From Planctomycetaceae bacterium UBA7805 (GTDB lineage Bacteria; Planctomycetota; Planctomycetia; Pirellulales; UBA7805), in NCBI GenBank assembly GCA_002480485.1, contig DLCF01000027.1:9936-73935 (forward strand): a stretch of DNA of 64,000 nucleotides, read 5' to 3'. The notes beneath the pieces are model-generated. The model made no database searches. It was not told the origin of the DNA and worked only from the letters and a program-made list of their open reading frames with translations. Made by a program: the position numbers and the translations under genes. This document shows positions 22,297 through 58,732 of the stretch, in pieces. The first letter of the stretch is position 1. Every line of letters begins with the position of its first letter.

Positions 22297-22306
22297 TTGC
22301 CATCGA

Positions 22307-23245
22307 TTACAGTTTTGCTCCAGTCCCCCGTAGTTCGCGGGGCAGCGGAAAAGTCACCTCCTCGGTGCGAATACTCCGCTCATCGATCACCGCTCCGAAT
22401 GTTTTTTCTAGATAGCGGCAGACGTCTTGCACGAGTGATTCAGGTGCACTCGCACCGGCGGTAATCAACACCGTCTTCACATCTTCAAACCAACTGTCCT
22501 GGATATCGCCGACCCCGTCTATCAGCTTGGAAGGCGTTTGGCATTCCCGCCCGATGTCAGTCAGTCGCTGACTATTGGAACTATTCTGGCTGCCAATCAC
22601 CAGCACAAAATCGGCCTCATCGGCAAGAATACGCACGGCCTCTTGACGATTTTGCGTCGCGTAACAAATGTCATCTTTCGGGGGACCCTGAATCTCGGGA
22701 AACCGATCCCGAAGCCTCGAGATAACTCGATTCGCATCATCAACCGAAAGCGTTGTCTGCGTCAGATAAGCCAAATTCCCCGGCTCCGCTACCTGTAATC
22801 GGTCGACATCTTCCGGTGTCTCCACCAGAAGAATTGCCTCAGGAGCTTCACCCATCGTGCCAATCACTTCATCGTGTCCATCATGACCTATAAGGACAAT
22901 CGTGCGCCCCTGTTTGGCGTAGCGAATTGCCTCCAGGTGCACCTTAGTCACCAGCGGACAGGTCGCATCGATCGCACGTAAATCTCTCGCTTTGGCCTGT
23001 TGCCGTATTTCTGGGGATACACCGTGGGCCGAAAAGAGCAGGGTCGCACCTCGGGGAATGGTGGAAAGGTCTTCAAGAAAAATAACGCCCTCCGATTCAA
23101 AGTGTTCGACGACGAATTTATTGTGCACAATCTCGTGATAAACATAGATCGGTGGCGGAAAGGCATCAATTGCCATCCGCAGACTCTCGATTGCCATCTC
23201 CACACCCGCACAGAAACCTCGGGGTGCAGCCAGGATAATTTTCAT
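22307..23245 (-). CDS. ispH: 4-hydroxy-3-methylbut-2-enyl diphosphate reductase (IspH/LytB)
   Basis: MKIILAAPRGFCAGVEMAIE, SAHGVSP, DATCPLVTKVH, IGHDGHDEV, ICYATQNRQ and IGSQNSSNSQRL include the three Fe-S cysteines. ATG 23245 was chosen over the track start at 23341. Confidence 0.94.
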   Translation of the reverse strand: MKIILAAPRGFCAGVEMAIESLRMAIDAFPPPIYVYHEIVHNKFVVEHFESEGVIFLEDLSTIPRGATLLFSAHGVSPEIRQQAKARDLRAIDATCPLVTKVHLEAIRYAKQGRTIVLIGHDGHDEVIGTMGEAPEAILLVETPEDVDRLQVAEPGNLAYLTQTTLSVDDANRVISRLRDRFPEIQGPPKDDICYATQNRQEAVRILADEADFVLVIGSQNSSNSQRLTDIGRECQTPSKLIDGVGDIQDSWFEDVKTVLITAGASAPESLVQDVCRYLEKTFGAVIDERSIRTEEVTFPLPRELRGTGAKL

Positions 23246-23378
23246 GTCTACCTTCTTAAACACTTTCGCAACGGTTCCAGGCAGCGATATCGGCAACCAG
23301 TCGCCTCCGTTATCATAATCCAATCCGAATCGACGTACCATCGCTTCGCCACTGACACGGCAACCTCGCGTGACTTTA

Positions 23379-24242
23379 TCATGTGGGATGCTCGGGCCGT
23401 TTGACGGATAACCAGCGGCAGATCACCCCTCGGAGAAAACTGGCAAGGGTATCGGCGGCACAGAGTGACGCCTGTTGCTCGCGATACCAGTCGCGCGCGG
23501 TTCCCGGACGACGTAGCGTTCCGCCGATCAATGCCCCCAGTCTTCCAGATACAGAGGGCTGCTCACCCGATTGCCGAATCTCAATGGGGGTCTGATCGTC
23601 CAATCGCTGACGAACGACACGGATTACCAGGCACGGTATACCCGACACCGCACACGTCGTAGCAATACCCATCGAAGTCGTGTCTGCAACATCCGCTTGG
23701 TATCTGTCTGCCAGTGCTATTCGCGAATCTTTATCTTCCGGAATCTGACGGCATGTATGCACGGTCCCGACTGTGAAGGCGTCAGGTTGCGATGTAGCCG
23801 ATCGCACGTCGATCTTTATTCGCTGTCCGTTGTCATCGATCACTTGCGAGGCCACAAGCAACGCGTCCTGTTGCAGTACGGCCCGAAGCGCGACAGAAAA
23901 TCCTGCAGCGATAACCCAATTTGGCGTGTGTGCCTGAACCAAAGCCTCTGTTGCCCTCTTTGCAGCTATCGCATCACCTGCCACTTGAGCGATTAATACT
24001 CTACGACCCTCAAGGTTACCCCGAAACAGCCGAAATTCCTGAGTGTGGATACGCACAACGTCGGTCAAGCAGTCTAACATGGAGCCGGTTTGGGCTTTCT
24101 CGTCGAGCACGATTGCCACATCGACTGCATTGCGTTGCTCTGTCGATTGAGAAGAAACCGTCGCAGCATCCTTTGCACGCGAGGAAAATTGCGATTTCGC
24201 TTGCTGTAGCAAAACGTGCTGAATCCACTGTTTCCAAACCAT
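23379..24242 (-). CDS. Pfs/MTAN/HpnG-like (PNP_UDP_1 fold) protein with substituted catalytic positions
   Basis: Hand alignment to E. coli MTA/SAH nucleosidase is colinear: [11 protein letters not shown].. / IGIIGAMEEEV.., [23 protein letters not shown] / [35 protein letters not shown] / DVIINTGSAGGL, and [16 protein letters not shown]...[10 protein letters not shown] / QAIAVEMEATAIAHVC...VRAISDVADQ. The start is taken at ATG 24242 (MVWKQW); the track start is 24314. Confidence 0.55.
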   Translation of the reverse strand: [287 protein letters not shown]

Positions 24243-24347
24243 GATCCGGACCTTAGTTGACGCGTCAAAACCTACTTCCGGTACGCGGAAACCCACCATG
24301 CGATTAACGTGCAAGAGCAGGTGCGTCGAAAGCGGCCAAAGTAGATC

Positions 24348-26207
24348 TCAATCAACCACCGAAAGCAAATTCGCTCCACGGGCCGCAACTTGACCGCACC
24401 TGGTTCCATTATCATCGACTGAAACCCAGCGGCATAGGGCTCGCAGTACCGCACAACGGTGCGTCAGCGGAACGGAGATCGATGCCGGAACCTCATCATC
24501 GGCAATCGATACGCCAGCCTCCATCAAAAAGTTGATACCCTCCGAAACTGACGGGTGATCTCGAAACCCACAATCGATTAAACAAGTCAAAGATAGCGCC
24601 GTGTCGTAAAGTGAATAAGGCGCAACGTCACTTTGAGCCTCGCATGAATGAACAGCCCAAGCGCCACCTGGATACTGATTCGCAAGCAGCCAGCTCACCC
24701 CTTGCACAATCAAAGGATCCTGTGGATAGATTCCCATACTTCGGACGGCTGCAAGCACATGTGCTGTGACAGCTACCTGCTGAGCAACGCTGTTTGAAAT
24801 CCAGGATCCATCGGTCATTTGTCTGCGGCGAAGAAAACGAATCGCGTGGGCGACTGACTGGTGCCCCAAATCCAGTCCAGAGTATGACAATGCTTCGAGG
24901 ACTCGAGCGGTTACCAACGGACAGTGATCCCAACTCCCGTCACGGCTTTGCGCGGCCAGTAATATTTCCTGTCGAGCTGCAATGGTGCGGATCAACCATT
25001 CTGGCCAGGGATACCCGGCGGGAGCATCGAGTGCGTCCGGATCTGCAATCAAATGCATTTCGGGAGGTAGCGCATGATCATCACCGTCGGTTTCGCACAG
25101 CAGACATGCGGCCCTCAACACCGCCGCCTGCTCTGCGATGGACAACTCACCAAACGAGGCGATGGCCAATGGCTTTGACGCCTTTTTGATCGCAGGTGCG
25201 GATATTGATAATCCCGAAAATAACAGTGCCTCCAGGCAGGTGGCAGCCACCTCGAAATCTGCCGGCAACAACGCATCAATGCTTTCAGTCTTTAATCGCT
25301 TTAGCAATTGCTGCAGTTCGGTGCTGTGGCTGGATGATCCACTGGGCCCTTCCTTAATCATTGCCCGGTAAAAATGCTCTCGAAAACTTTGACGGCCGGT
25401 CGATCCCGCGGAAGATTTAGCATCAGAGGTTTGAAACGGGTTGCATTGTTTTATTTTTTTCCACAAACCATGAGTGAATAACCGCATAGCGTGGTGCAAT
25501 GTTCGGGACTTTGGTACCTCCAACGGCAACCAGGCCACGCATGTTTCCAAGGTAGCAAGTTGCCGATGTACTTTGCGTTGCATTAGCTCGGTCCAGAGAC
25601 CCTGTTCGGCGGACGAGAAATGCTTCGATTCGGTGACACTATCGGCTTCAAAGGGAAGTAGTCCATACAAGGCCAGATAGCCCCGTGCCAGTTGATTGAT
25701 TTTTTCGGATCTATTTGTCCCCAAATCAAACCGCCATGCCGGGATCATTGCTTCATCCGTGGGCGATATTCCGAACCGTCTCAATGCGAAATCGATCAGA
25801 AGCGTACTGCTCAATGTGTCTTTATCAACAGGCCCTGAGGTCAATCCTTCGCTGCAATCCTGTGCATCAATTAAGCGATCAACGCACTCTGAGAAAACTG
25901 GTTCTAACGATGGCTCCTCGTGCAATCCTAGCCAGTGACTACACAACATGAACTCGGCGATCGATTGCGGTGTTGTACCTCCGGTGCATACAAAAGATCC
26001 GGTTTCACTTTGCCGATCGACAATCGCTTGACGAAGTTGAAGAATCGTGCGACGCAGAGGCCCGGAGAGCTCATGGCAGGATGCAACCCTCAGCGATCCC
26101 TGTTGCCGCTCCAGGTGGTCAAAGTGAACCACCCTTGGTGTAAACGGCTCTTCGTGAATCGCTAAACGAAAGATCTTGAGAGGCTCAATCATGACTTGAC
26201 CATCCAT
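24348..26207 (-). CDS. Highly divergent squalene-hopene-cyclase-like / prenyltransferase-squalene oxidase repeat protein
   Basis: 619 aa. Three C-terminal QW-like motifs are present (ILLAAQSRDGSW, AIRFLRRRQMTDGSW, VSWLLANQYPGGAW). They are interleaved with alpha-alpha-barrel helices resembling SHC (VTARVLEAL, AVTAHVLAAV, LYDTALSLTCLI). An N-terminal SHC-like helix pair is present (QAIVDRQSETGSF...AEFML). A DGDD tetrad lies at aa 374-377 (nt 25077-25088). Confidence 0.55.
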   Translation of the reverse strand: MDGQVMIEPLKIFRLAIHEEPFTPRVVHFDHLERQQGSLRVASCHELSGPLRRTILQLRQAIVDRQSETGSFVCTGGTTPQSIAEFMLCSHWLGLHEEPSLEPVFSECVDRLIDAQDCSEGLTSGPVDKDTLSSTLLIDFALRRFGISPTDEAMIPAWRFDLGTNRSEKINQLARGYLALYGLLPFEADSVTESKHFSSAEQGLWTELMQRKVHRQLATLETCVAWLPLEVPKSRTLHHAMRLFTHGLWKKIKQCNPFQTSDAKSSAGSTGRQSFREHFYRAMIKEGPSGSSSHSTELQQLLKRLKTESIDALLPADFEVAATCLEALLFSGLSISAPAIKKASKPLAIASFGELSIAEQAAVLRAACLLCETDGDDHALPPEMHLIADPDALDAPAGYPWPEWLIRTIAARQEILLAAQSRDGSWDHCPLVTARVLEALSYSGLDLGHQSVAHAIRFLRRRQMTDGSWISNSVAQQVAVTAHVLAAVRSMGIYPQDPLIVQGVSWLLANQYPGGAWAVHSCEAQSDVAPYSLYDTALSLTCLIDCGFRDHPSVSEGINFLMEAGVSIADDEVPASISVPLTHRCAVLRALCRWVSVDDNGTRCGQVAARGANLLSVVD

Positions 26208-26283
26208 GCCGACAACGATGCACAGGTTCCATGCCTGAACAATTTCTCTCGCAAGGTAAATCCGAGGGCTACTTACAACTTAG

Positions 26284-26328
26284 GCCACCAATCCCTGCTT
26301 AATCAATATCAGGGAAAAAATTGGTGGC
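26284..26328. promoter_or_regulatory. Extended hairpin / inverted repeat in the divergent cyclase-like / C25 promoter region
   Basis: The outer 9 bp GCCACCAAT (26284-26292) pairs with ATTGGTGGC (26320-26328). The inner 5 bp CCCTG (26293-26297) pairs with CAGGG (26310-26314). There is a 12-nt loop and an A5 bulge. Confidence 0.3.
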
Positions 26329-26412
26329 AATCACCCATGGACTGCTATCGATCCGATAACCCCCTTTCGCTAGACTGTCGCCTCCAAACTGTAATTGACT
26401 CGCGCGATTTTT

Positions 26413-28131
26413 ATGATGCTAGCTTGCCATCGCTTCCTGCTGTTCGCATTGATGCTGCTGTGTGGCACTGCTTGGTCGCCGCCGTCGCGCGCCGATGTCC
26501 TGGTCATTTGCCCGGATGCATTCACCGATGCCATTGGTCGGTGGATCGCGTATCGCACCGGTCAGGGACATCGGATCGTACTGATGGCAAACGATCGCTC
26601 GGCTTTCGTGCTGCAGAAGAAAATTCGCGACTATGCGACAAAGCGACCTGTAAACGCCGTGGTGCTGATCGGCGATGCTAGATCGGGCGATGTGAGTCAA
26701 AATTTAGGCGGTGCATGCCTGCAGCATTGTGTGCCCACACACTATCGTAAAGCCACCGTGATTACGCCTTATGCCGGGGATCGACAAATTGCCACTGATT
26801 ACCCGTTTGGCGATGTTGACGGAGATGATGTCGCAGAAATTCCAGTGGGTCGCCTGCCCGTGGATCGCCCAGAAGATTTGATGCGAATGGTTCAGCGGAT
26901 AATCGATTATGAGTCAAATAGCGACTTCTCACCCTGGAGAAGGCAAATCAACCTGGTCGCCGGTGTCGGGGAATTTGGGCCGATCATTGATTCGATAATC
27001 GAGGGCACGACACGTGCATTCCTGATTTCAAAAATTCCGCCAGCCTATCGAACAACGATGACGCAAGCCAATTGGAAAAGCCCGTATTGTCCACCGCCGG
27101 AGCAATTTAGAGACACCGTGCTAAACCGCTTGAATGAAGGTTGTCTGTTCTGGATTTATCTTGGCCACGGACAGATCGACTCTCTGGACAAGGTCCGCGT
27201 GCCGGGCGGACAATTTCCGATTTTGCGGAACACCGATGCTGACCGCATCGCTGCGAATCGAGGTGCCCCGATCGCGTTACTTTGTTGCTGCTACGCCGCA
27301 GCTTTTGATGCTCCTAACGACTGCCTAGCCGAAGCGATGTTGGAGAGTAAAGCAGGGCCGATAGCGGTCATCGGGGGGTCACGTACAACAATGCCGTATG
27401 GAATGACGGTGCTGGGCGAGGCGCTGATCAATCAACATTTCCAGAAACAGCAGACCACCTTGGGCGAGATTTTGAACAACGCAAAGAAACACATGGTCAG
27501 TGACGATGCAGGCGGTTCAAATCGAATCGCGCTGGATCGCCTAGCGGGGTTGCTCGGGAATACAAAGCAGCAACGGACAGCAGAGCGCAGAGAGCATGCC
27601 CAACTCTTCAATCTGTTGGGAGATCCCCTTTTAAAAATTGACGCATCCCGATCAGTCGTGGTGCGAGCACCGCGTCTGGTCGATCAAGGCGCAACGGTAA
27701 CCGTAGAAATCGACGCGCCCATGAAAGGATTGGCAACCATAGAAATCGTCACCCGACGCGGTACTTTCACCACGCCACTGGCGAACCGCACGCATTATGA
27801 CTCTTCCCCGGATGGCCGGAAGGAATATCTGCAATCCTATAAAAGGGCGAACGATCCACGTCTGGATCAGCAGCAGTGGCCTGTCGTGAAGGGTCTGCAG
27901 ACGTTCACAATGCAGTTGCCACCTGATTTTTCCGGACCCTGCCATGCGAGAGTGTATATTTACGGTATGCAACAGCATGCTATGGGATCTACTGATATTT
28001 ACGTGCAGCAGCAAAAGTCGCCGGAGCAATCTGTGAAGCGGACCGATCATGCAAACCCCTCTGCGGACTACTCGCTGCGTGCCGTGATCAACGTTGCAGA
28101 AAATCAAAACTCACGGCTGAGATCACGATAA
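26413..28131 (+). CDS. Secreted peptidase C25 (gingipain)-like cysteine peptidase family protein
   Basis: Signal peptide MMLACHRFLLFALMLLCGTAWSPPSRA. The C25 N-terminal pattern is present (VLVICPDAF...W..YR...G....L...........IRDY......AVVLIGDA...VP...........D.PFGDVDGDDVAEIPVGRLPV...EDL..MV.RIIDYE). The catalytic-type His lies in WIYLGHGQ and the Cys cluster in ALLCCCYAAAF. The track start at 26395 is TTG; ATG 26413 is used. Confidence 0.65.
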   Translation: MMLACHRFLLFALMLLCGTAWSPPSRADVLVICPDAFTDAIGRWIAYRTGQGHRIVLMANDRSAFVLQKKIRDYATKRPVNAVVLIGDARSGDVSQNLGGACLQHCVPTHYRKATVITPYAGDRQIATDYPFGDVDGDDVAEIPVGRLPVDRPEDLMRMVQRIIDYESNSDFSPWRRQINLVAGVGEFGPIIDSIIEGTTRAFLISKIPPAYRTTMTQANWKSPYCPPPEQFRDTVLNRLNEGCLFWIYLGHGQIDSLDKVRVPGGQFPILRNTDADRIAANRGAPIALLCCCYAAAFDAPNDCLAEAMLESKAGPIAVIGGSRTTMPYGMTVLGEALINQHFQKQQTTLGEILNNAKKHMVSDDAGGSNRIALDRLAGLLGNTKQQRTAERREHAQLFNLLGDPLLKIDASRSVVVRAPRLVDQGATVTVEIDAPMKGLATIEIVTRRGTFTTPLANRTHYDSSPDGRKEYLQSYKRANDPRLDQQQWPVVKGLQTFTMQLPPDFSGPCHARVYIYGMQQHAMGSTDIYVQQQKSPEQSVKRTDHANPSADYSLRAVINVAENQNSRLRSR

Positions 28132-28136
28132 GACCA

Positions 28137-30893
28137 TTACCGACTGCACTGCTCATCAATCTCAACCCCGGATGCAGCGATGGGGGGGGTGGAAGAGTGC
28201 GATCTCTCCTCACGCATGCCGGCTTCAGAATTGGCAATGTGCTGCCCGGAGATAGAGCGTGTGATGACCTCTTCAAACAGATTTTCCACCTTGTGGCCAA
28301 GCCGACAGGTTCGGGTGAAGGAGGAAATGAAATGTGCGGCCTTGCTCGCATCAATCGTTAGTGGTGGTTGGATTCGCAGCACCAGAGGATTAGAACGAGT
28401 AACTTGCGTATAAATATGATAATGCTCTAGCAGGATCTGCATTTGAAATACGGTGGGAAAGCTGGCGATCATCGCATCCATGCCCCGCATCATATACTGG
28501 AGCATCCCAGTCGAGTCGGTACGCTTCAAATGCGTTGTCACAGATTCTGCCAAAGGCGAGAGTTCTACACCAATCATCAATCCCTGTCCGCGGATGTCCT
28601 GAAAATAGTCCGGTAACTCCTGTCGAATTTCATTCAAGCCTTCCAGAATTTGAAATCCGCGTTGGGCAGCATTTTCCGCCAATCTTTCCTCAACGAGTGT
28701 TTCAATCGTCGCCAGGCCCGCAATACAAGCAAGACTTCCACCGCCAAAAGTGCTAGTGTGCAAGGCAAATCGCTCAACTGTCCCGTAGGCTTTCATCCAC
28801 AGATCACGGCGTGCCAACATGGCACCAATCGGCACCAATCCTCCACTGAGGCTCTTTGCAACACAAAGAATATCCGGTTCAATCGCCGCCTGTTCGCTCG
28901 CGAACATCGTCCCCGTGCGACCCATTCCCGTTTGGACTTCATCGGCAATCAAAAGCGTTCCGGCCTGCCGGCATATGCGCTCTGCTTCAGCCAGATAACC
29001 CGCCGGGGGAAGAATCATTCCTCCCTCTCCTTGGATCGGTTCCACGATGAATGCTGCCATATTGCGTGAGGCGAGAGTGCGTTCCAAAACCTCCAGATTG
29101 CCATACGGAATCGGGTGACAATCGGGCAGTAGCGGTGCAAATGGTTGTTGATAACCACGATTTCCAGTAACCGAGAGCGCACCAAGTGACTTGCCATGAT
29201 AAGAACCATGGCAATAGATAATGCCGGTTCGGCCCGTTGTGGCACGTGCCAGCTTTAGCGCAGACTCCACTGCCTCGGTCCCGCTGTTACAGAAAAATAC
29301 CATTTCCAAACCTGCCGGGGCAATCGATACCAAACGCTCGGACAAAGACGCCGCGTGAGGATTGATCGCCGCTGGGGAAAATCCGGGAACACTACTTTCT
29401 AGGGCCGCGCTGATCGCCTCAACAACTCTAGGGTGATTGTGACCGACATTAAGTGAGCCGAAACCCGAAACAAAATCGAGATAGTGATTTTCATCGGCAT
29501 CGGTGATTACCGTATCCTGGCCTCGTACGAAGGTCTTGTTGAGTCCACCCTGCTCGGCAAGATTGACCAATACCGGATTTACATATCGCTGAAAAAGGGT
29601 TCGCGCTCGGCGATTTTTAATTTCTTCTTCTTGCTGAATCCGCTGCTTGGATTTCTGATCGGTTGGCCGCTGCGTATCAGTTTGCGCTTGGCCGTAGGCA
29701 GGATGACCGTTGGTCGCGGATCCAGCGATCCTTTCTCCGGTAGTCGCCGAGCAGTGTTGGCCGGTAGCGAAATTTTTCTCCGCCAGACGACGACCAACTA
29801 CTTTATTCATGCTTGCCCATAGTGAATCGGGAACCGGTCGACCGTAGGAAGAGAGTTGCGAAAACGAAAATCCATGCCGAGTGGCGATGGATCCGATTTC
29901 TCCAATTCGCTCGATACTTAAATCACGCCCCAAAGAAAAACTTTCCGCGCGATCTTCCAGAGCCAAATTGATGGTTTCAGCCAGGCACCCCGGTACCAGA
30001 CCGAAGTGGAAACCGAGTAGCATCGATTTGCCTAGAAAACCTCTAGGTACGTCCACCAGGCCTCCAGAAACGACGAGAACATTGCTTCGACGTCGTGTCG
30101 ATCGGGTTACATCCGCAGGAACTCCCACGTCAATCACCACGCTGCCTGCCTGCAGCATCTCTTGCACGATACAACTGCCGCTCGAGGTGGCGGAAAGAAT
30201 CAATCGGGATTTCGCCAGGGCGGTCGGGATTTCAAAAACGAGCTCACTCTGAAGTTCAGCTGCAATTCGTGTTGCTCTCGGGGAAGGGCGACGGGCCACC
30301 AAGATCATTTCTCCTACCTTGGTCCGTAACATCCGGGCGATTGCCGTAGCGATGCTGCCGGGTAGACCGATCACGGTAACCGTCTCTTTGGTGAGGTCTA
30401 TCGACAGTTCACTGCAAGCATGTTGCAAATTTTTTAGCGCAGCATAAACCGTCAGGCTGTTTCCTGTGGTCACGGGAATCGGACTATTTTCTGCGATGTA
30501 CTGGCCGTGTCCGCCGACGACACTTGTGAGTGAACCGAGACCAACAATACCTGCACCCCAGTCCGCAGCCATATCTACAGCCGCTTGTGTCTGTTCGATG
30601 GCTGTTCCCGGGTCTTCTAAGATCTGCTTTGGACTGCATGGAATTTCGTACACGCGTCCTTCAGTCTCGCAACCGGTTTTGGTTTGCAGCCCCGAGAACT
30701 GATCAAGAACGATGGGGCGGTCTTTTGCGCGACCTCCGAAGGCAACCCCTTCCGCCATGCGACCTTGGACGAAATCGCATATCTCTAGCAGATTGCCATT
30801 TTCCCAATGCGACAGCAACTGCCCGCCATCATCCATCTGCCACAGAGCTTTACTTTCCTCTGAGAGAGGATGCACTACAAAGGCGAATTTCAT
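28137..30893 (-). CDS. Fusion protein: N-terminal acyl-ACP reductase (AAR)-like NAD(P)-dependent thioester reductase domain plus C-terminal class-III (omega/ornithine/putrescine-type) PLP aminotransferase
   Basis: aa 1-345 align colinearly with Synechococcus AAR as I recall it: [11 protein letters not shown] / [24 protein letters not shown] / [25 protein letters not shown] / [38 protein letters not shown] / [35 protein letters not shown] / [20 protein letters not shown] / MFACFAEAMLL, and [10 protein letters not shown] / IGEASVRHGF. The AAR catalytic Cys equivalent is C303 (nt 29985-29987). aa 434-875 form the class-III aminotransferase: [64 protein letters not shown], and the PLP Lys in [12 protein letters not shown] (K680, nt 28854-28856). 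An 88-aa low-complexity linker joins the two halves. Confidence 0.8.
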   Translation of the reverse strand: [918 protein letters not shown]

Positions 30894-31226
30894 CGTTGGA
30901 TTGGCCGAGTCGGGTGAAACGTGCTTGTTCGATCTTCAACTATCGCGGGAAAATGCCACGATCCATGTCTCGCATCCGAGCACGCATCCCCACGCGTCTC
31001 ACCAATCCTTCGCTTATTTGCTTCTTGCAAACAGCCCAGGCCTGGTAAAGAAACAGTTACCGGAGCTGAGCACCTAGCATACCCCCCCGCATAAGGCTCT
31101 TCAACCAATTTTAGCTGGAAATATCGAGTTTCAATGCGTGATTCATTTCATCCTGTCCAGGGAATTGCCATAATCAGCGCAGTCTACCAATGCTGAAACA
31201 AATGATCGTTTCTGCGTTTCGCTGCC

Positions 31227-31383
31227 CTACTCTGTGTTTCTTAAGCTCGAAAGAGTAGAAATATCGGTCTGCCCAATCGATGGATTTCGGTGCTATGATG
31301 ATGACTTCGAGGGCGAGCGATCAAAAAGAGTCCGAACACGTGATCGCGTTAAGAGTTTACTCTTACGTTATCCATAAACTCTT
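31227..31383. promoter_or_regulatory. Array of AAGAGT/ACTCTT hexamers and two 7-bp inverted repeats upstream of the MMPL transporter gene
   Basis: AAGAGT occurs at 31251, 31326 and 31351. ACTCTT occurs at 31359 and 31378. One inverted repeat is CTACTCT (31227-31233) with AGAGTAG (31252-31258). A tight palindrome is TAAGAGT-tt-ACTCTTA (31350-31365). The expected count of one hexamer (both strands) in about 135 bp is under 0.1. Confidence 0.4.
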
Positions 31384-31445
31384 CCTAGCTGAAACACTTC
31401 TCCGTCACTGTTGCCCCTGCGTCCCAAATCGCTGGAATATTTTGC

Positions 31446-34052
31446 ATGTCGGAATTAAACCGATCAAGTTTTTACGATCGATTTTACCTTTGGATCTTTA
31501 TTGCATCCCTAATATCGATTTATCCGATCACGCTGAGCGTCATCAAATCGGAAGAAACCAACAATAACAATATCAAGCAGTGGCTTCCGAAGGACAATTT
31601 TGATGAAACGAAAATATACGCTGCATTCAGGGCACATTTCGGCACCGATGAATATGCCATCGTCAGTTGGACAGGATGCACGCTAACCGATCCGCGACTC
31701 TCCGAGTTCGCGTCATTTGCCCGCAATTATCAGAATGCGTCTGGTGATAAGCTGTTTGCAAAAGTCACTACCGGTCCCGAACTATTAGAAAAGTTGCAAG
31801 CGAAGCCTTTCGATTTAAGCGAAAGGCTCGCTCGTCAGCGACTGGAATCAATCCTGATCGGTAAAGACGGCGAATCGAGTGCCGCGGTGATTGAATTAAC
31901 CGAGGCAGGAGATAACGATCGACGAGAGGCCATTGCGTCCCTTAGAAGCATACTGATCCAAGATTTAAAAATTCCGGCCGCTGAAATTCATATGGCCGGA
32001 GATGCGGTAACTAACGCTGCGGTGGATGTTGAGAGTCAGAGGGCCACCGATTCGCTTGTTGGCTACTCGATGCTGATTGCCCTCAGTTGTGCTGTCACAA
32101 GTTTCTTCTTCGCCCACGGTCGTCGTTCCAAGCACTGGATACGCGGTCTGACGTACAGCTTCACGCTGGCCATGCTGATTTTCTTTGTTTCTGTTTACAG
32201 CGCTATGCTGGCGCAATCGCTGGTGCCGATTTTTGGCGGACGTGTGAATCTCGTACTGGTTGTGATGCCCGTCTTAATTTACGTTTTAAGTCTGTCAGCA
32301 GGCGTTCACCTGATCAACTATTACCAGGATACGGTGCGTGAAAAGGGTGTTGCTCATGCCCCTGCAACGGCCATCCGACTCGGCTGGATGCCCTGCACGC
32401 TGGCGGCTGGAACGACGGCCATAGGGCTTGGGTCCCTCTCGGTAAGCAATATCATTCCGGTCAAGGATTTTGGAAAATTCTCCGCGATTGGAATTATCGC
32501 GAGTCTGGGCGTACTGTTTTTACTGCTGCCGGCGCTACTTGTTCTAATTCAAAGATTTTCAAAGAAAGCGAATGAGGGCCTCTCTGCGCAATCGCAAACC
32601 GAGCTCCAGGGAATCTTCGACCAAGTAGTCGAATGGTTGGCTGCAAAGGTTATTGCGCACCGATGGCCAGTGCTTTGCGTCTGTATCGGGCTGCTCATTT
32701 TCTTCGGTTGCGGGTCACTTTATATCAATACTTCAGTCAAGCCAGCCCGTTTTTTTGACCCAAAGCATCGGTTAATCACCGATTACGAGTGGCTGGCCAG
32801 CCCGGAACGTTTCGGCAATCAAATCCCTCTTGAGATTGTGGTCGCATTCAACCGAAAAAAGTCTACCTTGACGACGCTGGGGCAGATGCGGCTGATCTCG
32901 GCGATTGAAAAAGACCTAAAACAGAACCAATCGAACCTGATCAGCCACTCCATTTCGGCCGCCACTTTTGCACCAGAGCTAGATGAGGGCCATTACACGC
33001 AGTTCGTGATGAATAAACGTTTGGCAGCTAATCGCGCTGATTACCATAAAGTTCATTACTACAGCTATGAAAACGCGGCACATGAGGTTGCACCGGTCCC
33101 GCACGCAACTGATAAAGCGAAAGGGGGGACAGAAGACGAACCTCAAGCAGGAAAGGACCTTTGGCGAATCAGTGCCCGTATTCGCCCCGGAGAGAAAGAC
33201 TATGACGAGGTGATTCTCCAAATCGAAGAGCACGTAAACGGATTTCTGGCGAAGCGAAGTGCCGCAAGTCAGCAAAAACAGAAAAAAGCAAAACAAACTT
33301 TTGAAAAATTCAAGGAACTGGTTAAGCAAAAAATCGCTGAAGAAAGCGCTGCCTGTACCGAATCGGAAAACAAGCAAGGATGCCTTGAACAGATCAAACA
33401 AAAATATGATTTGATTGTAACGAATCGGACCAAAAAATTTGACAACTTTTTGCGGGCGGCGGCAGATGATGCAGTTGGAGTCGATGTCCAATACACGGGA
33501 ATGGTACCCCTATTTCACATCGCACAGCGTGAATTACTGAATGGGTTGTTTAAGAGCTTTGTGATCGCTTTTTTTCTAATCGCCGTAATGATGATAATTT
33601 GGTTCCGCAATTTTGCATCGGGACTGGTATCGATGCTGCCGAATGTTTTTCCGGCGGCGGTTATCTTTGGCTGGATGGGGTGGACCGATCGAATTGTTGA
33701 CATTGGATCGATGATGACTGCAAGCGTCGCGATGGGAATTGCGGTGGACGATACGGTCCACTTTCTTACTTGGTTCCGCAGGGGAATTGCGGCAAAGATG
33801 ACTCGCGCTGAAGCGGTGCTGTATTGTTATCGACGCTGCGCATTAGCGATGACGCAAACCACTTTGATCGCCGGACTTGGTCTGGTCATCTTCTCGCTGA
33901 GTTCTTTTCAGCCGGTATCCCAATTTGGCTTGTTGATGTTTTTACTGTTGCTTGCAGCGCTGGTGGGCGACCTTGTTTTCCTGCCCTCTCTTTTGGCTAG
34001 TCCCGCAGGCAAACTGTTTCAAGTTAAAAGTGATCCATCTGCGCCCCGGTGA
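31446..34052 (+). CDS. MMPL / HpnN-like RND-superfamily lipid exporter (12 TM, two periplasmic loops)
   Basis: 868 aa. The topology is 1+5 / 1+5 TM with large loops after TM1 and TM7. The TM4 region is VMPVLIYVLSLSAGVHLINYY and the TM10 region is MTASVAMGIAVDDTVHFLTWF, the charged RND proton-relay type. The second loop carries a Lys/Gln/Glu-rich predicted coiled-coil insert (nt 33247-33420). Confidence 0.8.
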   Translation: MSELNRSSFYDRFYLWIFIASLISIYPITLSVIKSEETNNNNIKQWLPKDNFDETKIYAAFRAHFGTDEYAIVSWTGCTLTDPRLSEFASFARNYQNASGDKLFAKVTTGPELLEKLQAKPFDLSERLARQRLESILIGKDGESSAAVIELTEAGDNDRREAIASLRSILIQDLKIPAAEIHMAGDAVTNAAVDVESQRATDSLVGYSMLIALSCAVTSFFFAHGRRSKHWIRGLTYSFTLAMLIFFVSVYSAMLAQSLVPIFGGRVNLVLVVMPVLIYVLSLSAGVHLINYYQDTVREKGVAHAPATAIRLGWMPCTLAAGTTAIGLGSLSVSNIIPVKDFGKFSAIGIIASLGVLFLLLPALLVLIQRFSKKANEGLSAQSQTELQGIFDQVVEWLAAKVIAHRWPVLCVCIGLLIFFGCGSLYINTSVKPARFFDPKHRLITDYEWLASPERFGNQIPLEIVVAFNRKKSTLTTLGQMRLISAIEKDLKQNQSNLISHSISAATFAPELDEGHYTQFVMNKRLAANRADYHKVHYYSYENAAHEVAPVPHATDKAKGGTEDEPQAGKDLWRISARIRPGEKDYDEVILQIEEHVNGFLAKRSAASQQKQKKAKQTFEKFKELVKQKIAEESAACTESENKQGCLEQIKQKYDLIVTNRTKKFDNFLRAAADDAVGVDVQYTGMVPLFHIAQRELLNGLFKSFVIAFFLIAVMMIIWFRNFASGLVSMLPNVFPAAVIFGWMGWTDRIVDIGSMMTASVAMGIAVDDTVHFLTWFRRGIAAKMTRAEAVLYCYRRCALAMTQTTLIAGLGLVIFSLSSFQPVSQFGLLMFLLLLAALVGDLVFLPSLLASPAGKLFQVKSDPSAPR

Positions 34053-34120
34053 TGGGCACCGCCTCAATTCCAGGGCCACATCGCTCTCGCAGAAGCACGC
34101 GTCTGCGGAAACAGACTGCG

Positions 34121-35257
34121 TTAGAAATAAGATTGCAACGTCCCGCGTCTGCGAACGTCAAGCGTGGAGCAGTGAAAGGCACCGCCGTATACGTAGTGGT
34201 TGGTGTACGGACAAGGAATAGGCTTGAAACCCCATTCCCGAAATTTCTTGATCAGGGGCTCCTGACTTGCCTCGCAGATGACCCGTTTTTCATCGAGCAT
34301 TAACACATTCATACTCAGCCAAGCACTGCTAAGGTCGATCATTTGCACCATCGTGCTGACCGGTGCAGGTGCCGGAAGAAGCTCCCAACTTTTGAGTACC
34401 TCCGGGGCATCACTAGGATCAAAGAAATCGGGGCTGTAGAGGGCACGTCCTGGGCAGAGCGGCACGAAGGTCGTGTCAATATGCATCGGCTGACGAGATT
34501 TTGTTTTGATCTCATGAATTGAAAAGTCACCGCCAAGATGGCGACGGAGCCAATCGATGCCAAAACGATTGGTAACGTTGCTACGCGTTACGAACAGGTC
34601 GCGACCACAGCGGGCAAAATCGGCTGCATCAAAACAACACTCGGTTTCATTGATCGCAAATTGAAGTTGTTCTCCTTTTTCCGGAAGTTGCCATTTTTCA
34701 TTATAAAGCGAGTCGGCCAGACGAGGGCGAGGGGCAGCTGTCCACCGCGCACCCGCCTTAAAATATTCGTGAAGCAGACTGCGATAAGCGTTCATCTCAA
34801 AATAGCGACTACGCCATGCCATAGGCGTTTCTATAATCTCATCTCCAATGACCAACAGTCCGTCACGAGGATTAGCAATATTGTACGCTGACTCGACCTC
34901 CCAATCCGGAGTTCGAAAACTTTCCGTTTGAGCGATAGGATCGGGTCGCCTGACTTTTACGCCCTCTGCCTCGAGAATAGCAACGAATTCGGCTTGATCT
35001 CGCTGTGCTGCCTGAACCATGGCATCCGGTGCCGGTTTGCCCGAAAGCAATTTAAGCAGTTCCCAAGATTCTTGGGGCGTAGCTGCCTGCAGCGTGACAT
35101 GCCAAGGAGGAACCGCCCCGCCATCCACTCGGCCGACAATTACCTCCTCTAGCGGATCCCACTCGTTGAACGAGCAAACAACCGATTTTTCTAAGTTACT
35201 TCGTTGCGTTTCGGCAGCTTCCACGTCGGTTCCTGATTTGCTGCCAGCTATCGCCAT
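34121..35257 (-). CDS. Arginine:X amidinotransferase (AGAT / StrB1 family; glycine amidinotransferase-like)
   Basis: Near-colinear with vertebrate AGAT as I recall it: FNEWDPLEEVIVGR, VKVRRPDPI, EIIETPMAWRSRYFE, CFDAADFARCGRDLF, PMHIDTTF, WLSMNVLMLDEKRV, and the C-terminal GGAFHCSTLDVRRRGTLQSYF. The catalytic Cys, His and Asp positions are all present. Confidence 0.9.
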   Translation of the reverse strand: MAIAGSKSGTDVEAAETQRSNLEKSVVCSFNEWDPLEEVIVGRVDGGAVPPWHVTLQAATPQESWELLKLLSGKPAPDAMVQAAQRDQAEFVAILEAEGVKVRRPDPIAQTESFRTPDWEVESAYNIANPRDGLLVIGDEIIETPMAWRSRYFEMNAYRSLLHEYFKAGARWTAAPRPRLADSLYNEKWQLPEKGEQLQFAINETECCFDAADFARCGRDLFVTRSNVTNRFGIDWLRRHLGGDFSIHEIKTKSRQPMHIDTTFVPLCPGRALYSPDFFDPSDAPEVLKSWELLPAPAPVSTMVQMIDLSSAWLSMNVLMLDEKRVICEASQEPLIKKFREWGFKPIPCPYTNHYVYGGAFHCSTLDVRRRGTLQSYF

Positions 35258-35462
35258 CGATCCACCCTCGCTCAGATAACCTTGGGGACTTCTGCAACTG
35301 AACTCAGGCGGTGCCTGCCGTTCTGCTCAATCAAGTTAATTATGTTTAAAGACGCGGTCAAACCGCAGCTGGAAAAATGATGGTAAATTTAATCGGTTGG
35401 CTGTCATTTTTACCGGATGGGTAAACGATGCAGCCAAGGAGGCTCTTTGGATGCTGACCCAA

Positions 35463-37550: not shown

Positions 37551-37697
37551 GGGATTTCCCTAATCCTATTTCATTGCTTTCGATTTCATCGCACCTTTGC
37601 TCCCAGCCAAGCAATTGGCGCATGGCACTGTTGGGAAGGGTAAGTACCAAAATCTTGCGGGAAGATGGAAGGCCAAATTCTTTGGAAATTGCCTCGT

Positions 37698-38942
37698 TCA
37701 GTCGACCGATTCTGCCGCCAGGCAGCGGCCGATCTGCCTAACCGCCTGGCGCAGACGGTTTTCATTCTCGACGAGCGAAAGCCTGAGAAAACCCTCGCCC
37801 GCGGGGCCGAAGCCAGTGCCAGGACTGACAGCAACGTCCCCTTTCTCCAACAGCATGGTCGCAAATTGAATCGAATCCATCTTGGATCGCCACGGCTCGG
37901 GAATCGGTACCCAACAAAACATTCCGGCCCGAGGTGGAGAGGCCTCCCACCCCAGACGATGCAGTCCCGCGCAGAGCACATCCCGTCGTTTTTGATAGAT
38001 CTCGCTCTGCCGGGTGACAGCAGCCTCAGTGTGTCGCAAGGCCATGATGGCCGCAACCTGAACAGGAGAAAAAAGACCGTAATCGTAGTAGGCTTTTATT
38101 GTGCCCAGCGCACGCACCATGTCAGGATGCCCGCAGCAGAAGCCGACCCTCCATCCGGCCATGTTATACCCTTTACTCATCGTGGTGAATTCAACACCGA
38201 CATCTTTCGCGCCCTGGGCGGCCAGAAAACTAGGAGGCTGATACCCCTCGAATGCAACATCTGCGTATGCGAAATCACTAATTACGTAAAAACCATATCG
38301 TTTTGCAAGGGCCACCACTTCATCAAAGAATTCGGCCTCGACCGTCACGGCAGAGGGGTTGTGCGGATAATTGACCACGAGCAACTTCGGCTTGGGAAAC
38401 AGGTGTTGACACGTATAAGCAATGTTGGACAGAAATTGTTGGCTGTCGGCAACTTCAAGCGCAATCGTATTGCCTGAGGCGAGCATCACAGCATAGGCAT
38501 GCACTGGAAAGTACGGCGCTGGAACAATGGCCGTATCGCCTGGTCCCATCAGAGCTAGGCACATGTGACTAAAGCCCTCTTTGGAGCCGATACAAACCAT
38601 TGCCTCAGAATCGGGATCGATCCTCACCCCGTATCGCGTAAGATATTTGCTAGCAACCTCCTGCCGTAGCTTCTGCAGCCCTGCGGCTTGACTGTAGCCA
38701 TGATTTCGCGGATCACGCGCTGTCTCGACCAGCTTTTCAACCACCAGATCTTCGGGGGGATCCGAGGGATTTCCCATCCCCAGGTCAATGACGTCACTTC
38801 CCGCGCGTCGCTTTTCGAGCAGCAATTTATTAATTCTGCCGAACAGGTACGGTGGAAGACGGTGAACCCGAGCTGCGACTTTGACGTCAAACGGCAGGGA
38901 ATAATCGACCGGATTGTCGGAGCCGGCTTTATCAACTGACAT
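37698..38942 (-). CDS. Class I/II PLP aminotransferase (AlaC/AspC-like)
   Basis: [33 protein letters not shown], the PLP Lys in [15 protein letters not shown], and the C-terminal R in FLRLSL. ATG 38942 (MSVDKAG) was preferred over the track start at 39011. Confidence 0.85.
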
Positions 38943-58595: not shown

Positions 58596-58732
58596 ATATC
58601 TCCTGTTAACTTCCTAAAAATCGAGGCCTTTCATTCTGCCTTCTCGAAGCAAAAAATGTCAGCCCTCTCCGAACCTTTTTTACTCGCGCGGCAGATAGAG
58701 ACAAAGGATATTCGCCGGAAGCGGGTGTTTAA

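What the first reader, a model, noticed from the sequence alone, without database searches (positions are those of the whole stretch)
28137..35257. Candidate undescribed amino-/guanidino-lipid module: reductase-aminotransferase fusion + divergent MMPL exporter + AGAT-type amidinotransferase
Seen in sequence: three genes sit within 7 kb.

- The AAR-like::aminotransferase fusion (minus strand, 28137-30893).
- An MMPL/HpnN-type RND lipid transporter, transcribed divergently from a shared 552-bp region (31446-34052).
- Convergent on the transporter 68 nt after its stop, an amidinotransferase almost colinear with vertebrate arginine:glycine amidinotransferase. The catalytic Cys (GGAFHCST), His (PMHID) and Asp (FDAADF) are all present (34121-35257).

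Established knowledge: AGAT-family enzymes transfer the amidino group of arginine onto a primary amine and release ornithine. Class-III aminotransferases commonly use ornithine-type amino donors. MMPL/HpnN transporters move lipids to the outer envelope.

Inference: the route would be acyl-thioester -> aldehyde -> primary amine -> guanidine, followed by export. Arginine could supply both the amidino group and, through ornithine, the amino group. The product would be a cationic alkyl-amine or alkyl-guanidine lipid, a class not described for Planctomycetota to my knowledge.

The genes are not in one operon, so the linkage is suggestive only.
Basis: inference. Interest (0 to 1): 0.75.

Follow-up and report, generated by a model that had tools for sequence, protein, structure and literature searches.

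The report
Planctomycete amine-making, guanidine-adding, exporting gene set
An uncultured marine planctomycete carries three neighbouring genes (an enzyme that should turn an activated acid into an amine, an enzyme that should add a guanidine group, and a lipid-type exporter); related genomes keep them together in several arrangements, so they probably build and export an undescribed cationic compound, possibly a lipid.

Summary
All three genes are real and at the stated coordinates, with catalytic residues intact. The 918-aa protein is colinear with PigE, for which thioester-reductase plus transaminase activity has been reported. Its N-domain matches cyanobacterial acyl-ACP reductase. The 378-aa protein belongs to the AGAT family and is closest to SxtG. 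The 868-aa protein is an HAE3/MMPL RND transporter, but not an HpnN orthologue.

Comparative genomics supports a functional link. The divergent fusion–MMPL pair is conserved across a Planctomycete subfamily, down to about 42–54% identity. The amidinotransferase lies next to a PigE-type transaminase in 4 of 10 sampled Planctomycete lineages, in four different gene arrangements.

The amidinotransferase is not a constant member: only 6 of 80 fusion loci have it. The slot beside the fusion or MMPL is usually filled by a FemAB-like/GNAT acyltransferase, and sometimes by a GT2 or a sulfotransferase. The best reading is a conserved amine-making and export core with a swappable tailoring enzyme.

That the substrate is a lipid is inferred, not shown. 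A hopanoid reading was considered and judged unlikely for this locus. Separately, related amidinotransferases sit inside true hopanoid clusters in other bacteria.

The parts
28137..30893 (-). PigE-like bifunctional enzyme, 918 aa: AAR-like thioester reductase fused to a class-III PLP transaminase
   Evidence: NCBIfam PigE 779.9 bits over nearly the full length. PDB 4ppm matches both domains. 100% identical to NCBI MBC20230.1, deposited as 'hypothetical protein'.
29829..30893 (-). N-terminal AAR-like reductase domain (about residues 1-355) with the putative acyl-accepting Cys303
   Evidence: Matches acyl-ACP reductase 6jzq at E 3e-19 over residues 60-343, with the Cys aligned. C303 is invariant in 25 homologues. 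Pfam Shikimate_DH NAD(P)-binding region at residues 164-273.
28302..29597 (-). C-terminal class-III aminotransferase domain (about residues 433-864), with the PLP lysine K680 in the motif AKSL
   Evidence: Pfam Aminotran_3 E 1e-96. PigE C-domain 344 bits, putrescine aminotransferase E 2e-88. K680 invariant.
31076..31104 (-). Conserved promoter-like block (TTGAAG, 17 nt, TATGCT) facing the fusion gene
   Evidence: Conserved in the window, L010, L009, L081 and L047 within an otherwise divergent spacer. Unique in the window. The function as a promoter is inferred.
30894..31015 (-). Conserved leader upstream of the fusion start codon; possibly structured
   Evidence: The most conserved part of the intergenic region. 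MFE -44.7 kcal/mol, z -2.54. The consensus fold has little covariation. No Rfam match.
31446..34052 (+). HAE3/MMPL-family RND transporter, 868 aa, transcribed divergently from the fusion
   Evidence: Pfam MMPL. HAE3 is the best NCBIfam match; HpnN scores are far below cutoff. The divergent pairing with the fusion is conserved in 12-13 of 80 fusion loci and in L174.
34121..35257 (-). AGAT-family amidinotransferase, 378 aa, convergent on the MMPL gene. Catalytic Asp210/His259/Cys363; Phe278 at the position of human AGAT Arg322
   Evidence: SxtG E 1e-120, AGAT E 4e-101. Motifs confirmed. Site table. Syntenic in L009, L010, L047, L081 and L001.
22307..28131 (.). Conserved neighbouring block whose relation to the module is uncertain: IspH (22307-23341 -), PNP/HpnG-like (23379-24314 -), divergent SHC-like (24348-26207 -), peptidase C25 (26395-28131 +)
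   Evidence: Pfam and NCBIfam. The block recurs beside the fusion in L009, L080, L081, L082 and L085. The SHC-like proteins score 61-131 bits against the SHC cutoff of 431.

Best explanation
The three genes form one pathway built on a Planctomycete-wide core. The core is a PigE-like enzyme and an HAE3/MMPL exporter, transcribed divergently. In this lineage the tailoring enzyme is an amidinotransferase.

Proposed mechanism:
1. The AAR-like N-domain takes an acyl thioester (acyl-ACP or acyl-CoA) onto Cys303 and reduces it with NAD(P)H to an aldehyde.
2. The fused class-III PLP transaminase (Lys680) converts the aldehyde to a primary amine, probably using an omega-amino donor such as ornithine.
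3. The AGAT-family enzyme takes the amidino group of L-arginine onto Cys363, releases ornithine, and transfers the group to that amine. The product is a mono-substituted guanidine.
4. The MMPL transporter moves the amphiphilic cationic product out of the cytoplasmic membrane.

Shown here: the domain identities, the conserved catalytic residues, and the recurrent gene linkage. Inferred: the identity of the substrate (most likely a medium- or long-chain acyl group), the order of steps 2 and 3, the amino donor, and the cargo of the exporter.
For: Architecture and residues:
- The fusion is colinear with PigE. Thioester-reductase plus transaminase activity is reported for PigE, with ornithine or arginine proposed as amino donor (PMC8341465).
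- The N-domain is homologous to acyl-ACP reductase, with the catalytic Cys aligned.
- The AT has a complete catalytic triad.

Linkage:
- AT next to a PigE-type transaminase in four arrangements. Window type: fusion <-> MMPL -> <- AT. L015: fusion -> <- AT. L007/L035: AT -> fusion with a 23-nt gap, MMPL nearby. L172: MMPL <-> transaminase -> AT.
- This is 4 of 10 sampled Planctomycete AT lineages.
- The fusion tree shows an MMPL-linked subfamily, and a separate AT+MMPL lineage, L035.
- From the MMPL side, L174 repeats fusion <-> MMPL with a FemAB-like gene in the slot downstream of the MMPL.
- Other tailoring genes at the locus: GT2, GNAT and sulfotransferase.

Acyl or lipid hints:
- An AMP-binding enzyme whose best match is long-chain-fatty-acid-CoA ligase lies just upstream of the fusion in 8 loci.
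- The transporter belongs to the HAE3/MMPL lipid-exporter class.

Acceptor:
- Phe278 replaces AGAT Arg322, as in SxtG. SxtG is reported to accept diverse primary amines (PMC12371840).
Against: - There is no experiment, and the organism is an uncultured MAG.
- The AT is absent from 74 of 80 fusion loci.
- Four to six of ten Planctomycete AT lineages have no fusion nearby. One of these is a true SHC-HpnH-HpnG operon (L002) and one is a PKS operon (L169).
- The window contains no ACP, acyl-activating enzyme or acyltransferase partner, so the acyl donor is unknown.
- In the window the three genes lie on alternating strands and are not one operon.
- The trees are neighbour-joining without support values.
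- The 10-lineage tally is small, and the lineages may share an ancestral cluster.
- The role I assign to AGAT Arg322 (binding the substrate carboxylate) is recalled from the AGAT structure literature and could not be verified here.
Confidence: 0.5

Rival explanations
1. Reverse order, small-molecule product. The amidinotransferase first makes a guanidino acid, following the CyrA/AGAT logic. That acid is activated as a thioester, and the fusion reduces and transaminates it to a guanidino-amine (an agmatine- or polyamine-like cation), not a lipid. The MMPL exports it or is unrelated to it.
For: - In L169 a 63%-identical AT ends a PKS operon that also has an aaRS-like ligase and an ACP. That arrangement suggests supply of a guanidino starter unit.
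- In L007 the AT precedes the fusion in the operon.
- The transaminase domain is closest to putrescine and acetylornithine aminotransferases.
- HsvA, a polyamine amidinotransferase, scores 332 bits.
Against: - Phe278 sits at the AGAT Arg322 position, as in SxtG, whose reported acceptors are primary amines and not amino acids.
- The window has no activating ligase or ACP.
- The N-domain's only solved relatives other than PigE with a significant match are long-chain acyl-ACP reductases.
- The conserved partner is a lipid-type RND transporter.
Confidence: 0.15
2. Terpenoid or hopanoid-type substrate. The module decorates and exports an isoprenoid lipid amine (for example an amino-bacteriohopanepolyol analogue), not a fatty amine. 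The MMPL would act as a divergent HpnN analogue, and the transaminase as an HpnO analogue.
For: - An SHC-like / HpnG-like / IspH operon lies 2 kb from the fusion, and this block is conserved beside the fusion out to 54% identity.
- L002 has a 68%-identical AT directly after a true SHC, HpnH and an HpnG-like gene.
- In other phyla, ATs 52-54% identical sit beside HpnN and HpnI/J/L.
- HpnN belongs to the same broad transporter class.
Against: - SHC-like scores are 61-131 bits against a cutoff of 431. BLAST places a gap opposite the true SHC's DxDD region, and the window protein's own DGDD at residue 374 falls outside that position.
- No HpnH is present in the 64-kb window.
- No true Hpn gene (HpnN/G/E/D/H/I/J/L) occurs in any of the 80 fusion loci.
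- A recent survey saw no SHC in any Pirellulales genome (bioRxiv 10.1101/2025.07.29.667474).
- A thioester reductase domain has no obvious role in the known route from ribosylhopane to the amine.
- Hpn-linked ATs fall in a different part of the AT tree.
Confidence: 0.12
3. No shared pathway for the amidinotransferase. The fusion and MMPL work together, but the AT serves independent arginine or guanidino-compound metabolism, and lies beside them through inherited synteny or chance.
For: - The AT is convergent on the MMPL and has its own transcription unit.
- It is missing from most fusion loci.
- Several close AT relatives have unrelated neighbours: L004, L006, L170 and L171.
- The family is very large and versatile, with more than 5000 hits.
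Against: - Proximity to a PigE-type transaminase recurs with different gene order and strand in lineages whose ATs are only 58-66% identical to the window's, including a 23-nt same-strand junction.
- With about one fusion per multi-megabase genome, chance adjacency within a few kb is of the order of 1 in 1000 per lineage (my estimate).
- L164 repeats the convergent MMPL -> <- AT pair at 52% AT identity.
Confidence: 0.13

Closest known systems
PigE (prodigiosin 2-methyl-3-amylpyrrole pathway, Serratia; PDB 4ppm)
   Same: The two-domain architecture is the same over the full length: an AAR-like thioester reductase with a conserved Cys, then a class-III PLP transaminase. NCBIfam score 779.9 bits.
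   Different: The score is below the PigE equivalog cutoff of 850. No pigD, pigB or other prodigiosin genes are nearby. The partners here are an MMPL exporter and an amidinotransferase. The product would stay an open-chain amine or guanidine and would not cyclise to a pyrroline.
Cyanobacterial acyl-ACP reductase (AAR; PDB 6jzq/6jzu)
   Same: The N-domain is homologous over its whole length with the catalytic Cys aligned. AAR converts long-chain acyl-ACP to an aldehyde that is handed to a partner enzyme.
   Different: Here the partner is a fused transaminase, not aldehyde-deformylating oxygenase. Chain-length preference is unknown.
TamA/TamH fatty-amine route of tambjamine YP1 (PMC9594044)
   Same: The chemical logic is the same: activated fatty acid to aldehyde to primary fatty amine, carried out by a natural reductase-transaminase fusion (abstract seen).
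   Different: TamH has the opposite domain order and an unrelated SDR-type C-terminal thioester reductase. Its amine is condensed into a pigment, not amidinated or exported.
SxtG, CyrA/AGAT, HsvA and StrB1 amidinotransferases
   Same: Same fold family and the same Cys-His-Asp catalytic triad. SxtG is the closest at E 1e-120. Phe at the AGAT Arg322 position is shared with SxtG. SxtG is reported to accept many primary amines.
   Different: None of the known pathways pairs the enzyme with a PigE-like amine synthase or an MMPL exporter. No sxt, cyr or str genes are nearby.
HpnN / MmpL3-type lipid exporters (HAE3 and MMPL RND families)
   Same: RND/MMPL fold with two TM bundles. The best family match is HAE3. 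These transporters move hopanoids or mycolate lipids outward.
   Different: HpnN models score 30-43 bits against cutoffs of 751-1100. PDB HpnN matches only at E 0.0017. The gene is not in a hopanoid cluster. It belongs to a largely Planctomycete-restricted family.

Membership tests
PigE (NCBIfam NF053554, equivalog) | Full-length two-domain match at or above the curated cutoff of 850 bits | tested here: not met
   779.9 bits over residues 47-864, model positions 31-831 of 837. The architecture matches, but the score is below the equivalog cutoff.
PigE (NCBIfam NF053554, equivalog) | Catalytic Cys of the reductase domain (PigE Cys296) and the PLP-binding Lys of the transaminase | tested here: met
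   Cys303 aligns with the PigE and AAR Cys. C303 and K680 are invariant in 25 homologues. The role of the Cys comes from PMC8341465.
PigE (NCBIfam NF053554, equivalog) | Prodigiosin-cluster context (pigD, pigB and others) | tested here: not met
   Pfam and NCBIfam annotation of every ORF of 200 aa or more in the window shows no such genes.
Acyl-ACP reductase (AAR) superfamily | Homology across the domain with the active-site Cys conserved | tested here: met
   6jzq E 3e-19, residues 60-343 against 39-335, Cys in register.
Acyl-ACP reductase (AAR) superfamily | Uses long-chain acyl-ACP as substrate | not testable with these tools
   Indirect evidence only: a ligase resembling long-chain-fatty-acid-CoA ligase lies upstream of the fusion in 8 sister loci.
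AGAT-family amidinotransferase | Colinear fold-family match and the Asp-His-Cys catalytic triad | tested here: met
   SxtG 406 bits, AGAT 342 bits, colinear. D210, H259 and C363 present.
Glycine-specific AGAT/CyrA type | Arg at the human AGAT position 322 (the carboxylate-binding role is recalled, not verified here) | tested here: not met
   Phe278 in the window. Phe or Tyr in the Planctomycete and Hpn-linked ATs and in SxtG. Arg in only 17 of 93 family members.
HpnN hopanoid transporter (NF052374 / TIGR03480) | Score at or above the curated cutoff (1100 / 751.85 bits) | tested here: not met
   30.5 and 43.5 bits. True HpnN proteins in L123 and L136 score 1090-1197 bits.
HpnN hopanoid transporter (NF052374 / TIGR03480) | Located in a cluster with true SHC, HpnH and HpnG | tested here: not met
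   SHC-like 60.9 bits against 431. HpnG-like 47.6 bits against 187. No HpnH in the window.
HAE3 / MMPL RND transporters | MMPL domains in two repeats, each with a TM bundle | tested here: met
   Pfam MMPL 76.4 bits in 2 stretches, above its cutoff of 20.5. Hydropathy shows TM clusters at residues 204-427 and 700-846. TIGR00921 scores 101 bits, below its subfamily cutoff of 351.9.
Canonical hopanoid (hpn) biosynthesis cluster | A functional squalene-hopene cyclase (family cutoff; DxDD motif at the homologous position) | tested here: not met
   60.9 bits against 431. BLAST alignment to a true SHC places a gap opposite its DSDDTA motif. A DGDD at residue 374 is not at the homologous position.

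The most novel reading that the evidence does not exclude
Planctomycetota possess an undescribed family of nitrogen-headed envelope or secreted lipids. A PigE-like acyl-thioester to amine synthase makes them, and a dedicated MMPL exports them. The head group is set by a swappable tailoring gene. In this widespread marine lineage that gene is an amidinotransferase, which would give long-chain alkyl-guanidinium lipids: a natural analogue of the synthetic fungicide dodine. Elsewhere the tailoring gene would give N-acyl, glycosyl or sulfated variants.
Probability: 0.3. Interest if true: 0.8.

Novelty: new variant of a known kind. Interest (0 to 1): 0.62.

Why it matters
- **Lipid biology.** If the product is a guanidinium or amine lipid, it would be a new lipid class for bacteria and for Planctomycetota. 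That would bear on envelope charge, antimicrobial chemistry and marine lipid biomarkers. The lineage recurs in Tara and other ocean metagenomes.
- **Annotation.** The fusion is encoded in at least 186 species-level genomes, nearly all of those listed being Planctomycetota, and is deposited as 'hypothetical' or as a generic aminotransferase. Recognising it as an amine-forming core with modular tailoring gives a testable function to a large gene family.
- **Biocatalysis.** The family offers new natural enzymes for converting acids to amines.
- **Hopanoid side observation.** AGAT-family genes sit inside true hopanoid clusters next to HpnI/J/L/N. This nominates a candidate enzyme for guanidine-substituted bacteriohopanetetrol cyclitol ether. 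That lipid is known (PMC5358736), and I found no gene assigned to it in the searchable literature.

Tried and rejected
- **Hopanoid cluster reading.** The SHC-like, HpnG-like, IspH and MMPL genes prompted it. I judged it unlikely as the main explanation because every Hpn-family score is far below cutoff, HpnH is absent, and no true Hpn gene (HpnN/G/E/D/H/I/J/L) appears in the 80 fusion loci.
- **Riboswitch or known RNA.** A search of 22000-38000 for, say, a guanidine riboswitch gave only a chance-level hit.
- **Promoter and terminator consensus scan.** Fewer promoter-like sites than in shuffled sequence, and no convincing bidirectional terminator in the 68-nt convergent gap.
- **Alternative partners in the window.** FemAB-like, GNAT, AMP-ligase, sulfotransferase and the unknown C4 family: none found.
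- **Carrier-protein idea for L172.** The transaminase's N-terminus contains the motif GFDLNFDSSKLEAL, but Pfam gives no support.
- **Metagenome scan from the AT side.** It serves as background and is not a census.
- **AGAT Arg322.** Literature confirmation of its role found nothing usable.
- **Not used.** Structure prediction and fold search, because sequence-level matches to solved structures were already decisive.

Full report
**Observation**

The fusion is at 28137-30893 (-), 918 aa. The transporter is at 31446-34052 (+), 868 aa. The amidinotransferase is at 34121-35257 (-), 378 aa. A 552-bp divergent spacer separates the first two, and a 68-nt gap separates the convergent stop codons of the last two.

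The fusion carries a Shikimate_DH-type NAD(P) domain and an Aminotran_3 domain.
- Its best family match is PigE: 779.9 bits over almost the whole model, just under the 850-bit equivalog cutoff.
- Both halves align to the PigE chain 4ppm.
- The N-terminal 366 residues alone match cyanobacterial acyl-ACP reductase at E 3e-19 over residues 60-343, with the active-site cysteine in register.
- Cys303 and the PLP lysine K680 are invariant among 25 homologues.

The amidinotransferase matches SxtG (E 1e-120), human AGAT (E 4e-101, colinear), HsvA and StrB1. It carries the FDAADF, PMHID and GGAFHCST motifs.

The transporter is a true MMPL/RND protein, but the 'HpnN-type' label is loose. HpnN models give 30-43 bits against cutoffs of 751-1100. 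The best match is the HAE3 family, itself below cutoff. PDB HpnN matches only at E 0.0017.

The exact proteins are on record from a marine surface Planctomycetaceae MAG (Tara station 124). The fusion and the transporter are deposited as 'hypothetical protein'. The rest of the window is ordinary chromosome: dxr, rseP, lpxD, lpxI, ispD, ispH, tyrS, ffh.

**Precedent for the chemistry**

Couturier et al. 2021 (PMC8341465) gave evidence that PigE is bifunctional. Its N-terminal AAR-like domain reduces a thioester to an aldehyde through an active-site cysteine. Its C-terminal class-III transaminase converts the aldehyde to an amine. They proposed ornithine or arginine as the amino donor.

**Linkage seen from the fusion side**

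I fetched 80 species-level genome loci encoding the fusion, out of 186 relatives found. Seventy-eight are labelled as Planctomycetota. I then scored their neighbours.

| Neighbour | Loci (of 80) | Note |
|---|---|---|
| FemAB-like/Acetyltransf_6 acyltransferase (about 405 aa) | 28 | abuts the fusion; the commonest neighbour |
| Window-type MMPL | 12-13 | always divergent from the fusion |
| AMP-binding enzyme | 8 | just upstream; best match long-chain-fatty-acid-CoA ligase |
| Unknown 459-aa family | 8 | no family match |
| Amidinotransferase | 6 | |
| Second GNAT | 5 | |
| Sulfotransferase | 4 | |

A neighbour-joining tree of the fusions (no support values) shows an MMPL-linked subfamily: the window, L009, L010, L011, L012, L014, L015, L080, L081 and L085. 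Within it, the AT is present in the window group and in L015. L035 is a distant fusion lineage that has both an AT and an MMPL. In the AT-less subfamily members L012 and L082, a small GT2 glycosyltransferase follows the MMPL.

**Linkage seen from the amidinotransferase side**

The AT family is very large, with more than 5000 hits at E below 1e-30. The closest relatives form a Planctomycete clade. I sampled ten lineages of that clade. Four place the AT beside a PigE-type transaminase, each in a different arrangement:
- **Window group:** fusion <-> MMPL -> <- AT.
- **L015:** fusion -> <- AT, with a sulfotransferase coupled to the AT.
- **L007/L035:** AT -> fusion on one strand with a 23-nt gap, and an HAE3/MMPL gene divergent nearby.
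- **L172:** window-type MMPL <-> transaminase -> AT. Here only the transaminase half is present.

L164, a more distant AT at 52% identity, repeats the convergent MMPL -> <- AT pair.

The other six lineages show:
- a true SHC-HpnH-HpnG-like operon ending in the AT (L002);
- a PKS operon ending in an aaRS-like ligase and the AT (L169);
- unrelated neighbours (L004, L006, L170, L171).

With roughly one fusion gene per multi-megabase genome, chance adjacency within a few kilobases is of the order of 1 in 1000 per lineage (my estimate). The different orders and strands argue that proximity was retained through rearrangements.

**Linkage seen from the transporter side**

The MMPL family is largely Planctomycete-restricted. 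I looked up three distant members.
- **L174 (42% identity):** repeats the divergent fusion <-> MMPL pair, with the FemAB-like acyltransferase directly downstream of the MMPL.
- **L173:** a stand-alone class-III aminotransferase lies directly upstream of the MMPL.
- **L175:** GNAT and AMP-binding neighbours, but no fusion.

**Synthesis**

The conserved core is the PigE-like amine synthase plus the HAE3/MMPL exporter. Beside it sits a swappable enzyme: an amidinotransferase, FemAB-like/GNAT acyltransferases, a GT2 or a sulfotransferase. The acyltransferases and the amidinotransferase would act on an amino group. For the other two that is only a possibility.

This pattern fits an amine product whose nitrogen is the point of diversification.

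Two further points fit an acceptor that is not an amino acid. The window's AT has Phe278 at the position of human AGAT Arg322, as does SxtG, and only 17 of 93 family members keep Arg. The carboxylate-binding role of Arg322 is from my memory of the AGAT structure work and could not be confirmed here. SxtG is reported to accept many primary amines (PMC12371840).

**What remains inferred**

The acyl group is unknown. A fatty chain is suggested by three things: homology to AAR, the fatty-acyl-CoA-ligase-like partners in sister loci, and the lipid-type exporter. However, the window has no ACP, ligase or acyltransferase.

The order of amidination and amine formation is not fixed by the data. A reversed, small-molecule route, in which a guanidino acid becomes a guanidino-amine, remains possible.

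The idea that arginine supplies both the amidino group and, through ornithine, the amino group is consistent with the donors proposed for PigE, but it is untested.

**The hopanoid question**

An SHC-like / HpnG-like / IspH operon lies 2 kb from the fusion (22307-26207), and this block is conserved beside the fusion out to 54% identity. The reading fails on several counts.
- The SHC-like proteins score 61-131 bits against a 431-bit cutoff.
- BLAST puts a gap opposite the true SHC's DxDD region.
- The window has no HpnH.
- No true Hpn gene (HpnN/G/E/D/H/I/J/L) occurs in any of the 80 fusion loci.
- A recent survey found no SHC in Pirellulales (bioRxiv 10.1101/2025.07.29.667474).

I therefore rate a terpenoid substrate as a minority possibility.

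**Side finding**

In non-Planctomycete metagenome contigs, amidinotransferases 52-54% identical to the window's lie inside true hopanoid clusters.
- **L123:** HpnD-HpnE-SHC-HpnG-(HpnH, IspH)-HpnN -> AT.
- **L136:** HpnH-HpnN-...-HpnJ-HpnI-HpnL-AT.
- Similar contexts occur in L120, L125, L128, L134, L137, L138 and L139. In the AT tree these seven and L136 form one tight cluster, so together they may count as only one or two independent lineages.

Guanidine-substituted BHT cyclitol ether is a known hopanoid (PMC5358736). Searches pairing 'amidinotransferase' with 'hopanoid' found no paper, and two recent hopanoid surveys do not mention a guanidine or amidino step. This nominates a candidate gene for that modification.

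**Regulatory region**

The 552-bp spacer contains a promoter-like block (TTGAAG, 17 nt, TATGCT) at 31076-31104 (-), conserved in five relatives. It also contains a conserved leader of about 120 nt before the fusion start codon. The leader folds better than shuffled sequence (z -2.5), but covariation is weak. No Rfam family matches.

**Verdict**

Three changes are needed. The transporter is not an HpnN orthologue. The amidinotransferase is one optional tailoring module on a broader Planctomycete system. The lipid identity of the product is unproven.

The enzymes are all of known kinds, and the combination is undescribed in the literature I could search. I classify it as a new variant of a known kind.

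Noticed in passing
L123:128-11134; L136:207-11077; also L120, L125, L128, L134, L137, L138, L139: AGAT-family amidinotransferases 52-54% identical to the window's sit at the edge of true hopanoid clusters. They lie next to HpnN and the HpnI/HpnJ/HpnL side-chain genes, which score above the NCBIfam cutoffs. This makes them a candidate for the unassigned guanidine substitution of bacteriohopanetetrol cyclitol ether. No paper pairs 'amidinotransferase' with 'hopanoid' in the searchable library.
   Followed up: partly
window 22307-26207 (-): A tightly packed operon of a divergent SHC-like protein (619 aa, 61 bits against the SHC cutoff of 431, no TM), an HpnG/PNP-like protein (47.6 bits against 187) and a true IspH. 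With the C25 peptidase (26395-28131) it stays beside the fusion out to 54% fusion identity (L082, L085). The function of this sub-threshold cyclase-like family is unknown.
   Followed up: partly
window 30894-31104 (-): A conserved promoter-like block (TTGAAG, 17 nt, TATGCT at 31076-31104) and a conserved leader of about 120 nt before the fusion start codon. The leader has a possible closing helix, GGAUUGGUG...GGCCAAUCC, that ends just before the AUG (z -2.54). Covariation is weak with five relatives. No Rfam match.
   Followed up: partly
28 of the 80 fusion loci L009-L088 (e.g. L078:8613-9830); L174:10669-11865: A FemAB_like/Acetyltransf_6 protein of about 400 aa is the commonest neighbour of the PigE-like fusion across Planctomycetota (28 of 80 loci). 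In L174 it directly follows the MMPL. It has no NCBIfam match. This may point to N-acylated amine products in most lineages.
   Followed up: partly
L169:1-11107: A 63%-identical Planctomycete amidinotransferase is the last gene of a same-strand operon: two modular PKS genes, 3-hydroxyacyl-CoA dehydrogenase, ACP, thioesterase, acyl-CoA dehydrogenase and a 397-aa protein with weak class-II aaRS-core similarity. This may be a guanidino-starter polyketide pathway.
   Followed up: no
L172:2491-10394: A variant locus: window-type MMPL, divergent from a 658-aa protein, followed by the AT. The 658-aa protein has only the PigE-type transaminase half plus an unassigned N-terminus of about 195 aa (motif GFDLNFDSSKLEAL, no Pfam hit). 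A flavin amine oxidase is convergent on the AT.
   Followed up: partly
L164:198-4659: An NMT1/THI5-like substrate-binding protein is translationally coupled to an AT (52% identical), which is convergent on and overlaps an MMPL gene by 10 nt. This repeats the window's MMPL -> <- AT geometry in a more distant lineage. The contig ends before the region upstream of the MMPL.
   Followed up: partly
window 33100-33500 (MMPL residues about 550-690): The second periplasmic domain of the MMPL carries a long Lys/Glu/Gln-rich, probably coiled or disordered, insert (…KQKKAKQTFEKFKELVKQKIAEESAACTESENKQGCLEQIKQKYD…). I did not see it aligned in the HpnN or HAE3 matches.
   Followed up: no
window 60427-63975 (-) and 58656-59291 (+): A 1182-aa ORF with no Pfam family, and a 211-aa ORF with no family that overlaps the ffh gene on the opposite strand. 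The latter is probably not a gene.
   Followed up: no
L004:10001-12160; L171:1942-9743; L007:7817-9394: Several Planctomycete-clade ATs lie beside GFO_IDH_MocA oxidoreductases, with a 16-nt same-strand gap in L004, and beside AP_endonuc_2 (xylose-isomerase-like) genes. That pairing recalls inositol and inosamine chemistry of the StrB1 type. These families are very abundant in Planctomycetes, so the adjacency may be chance.
   Followed up: no
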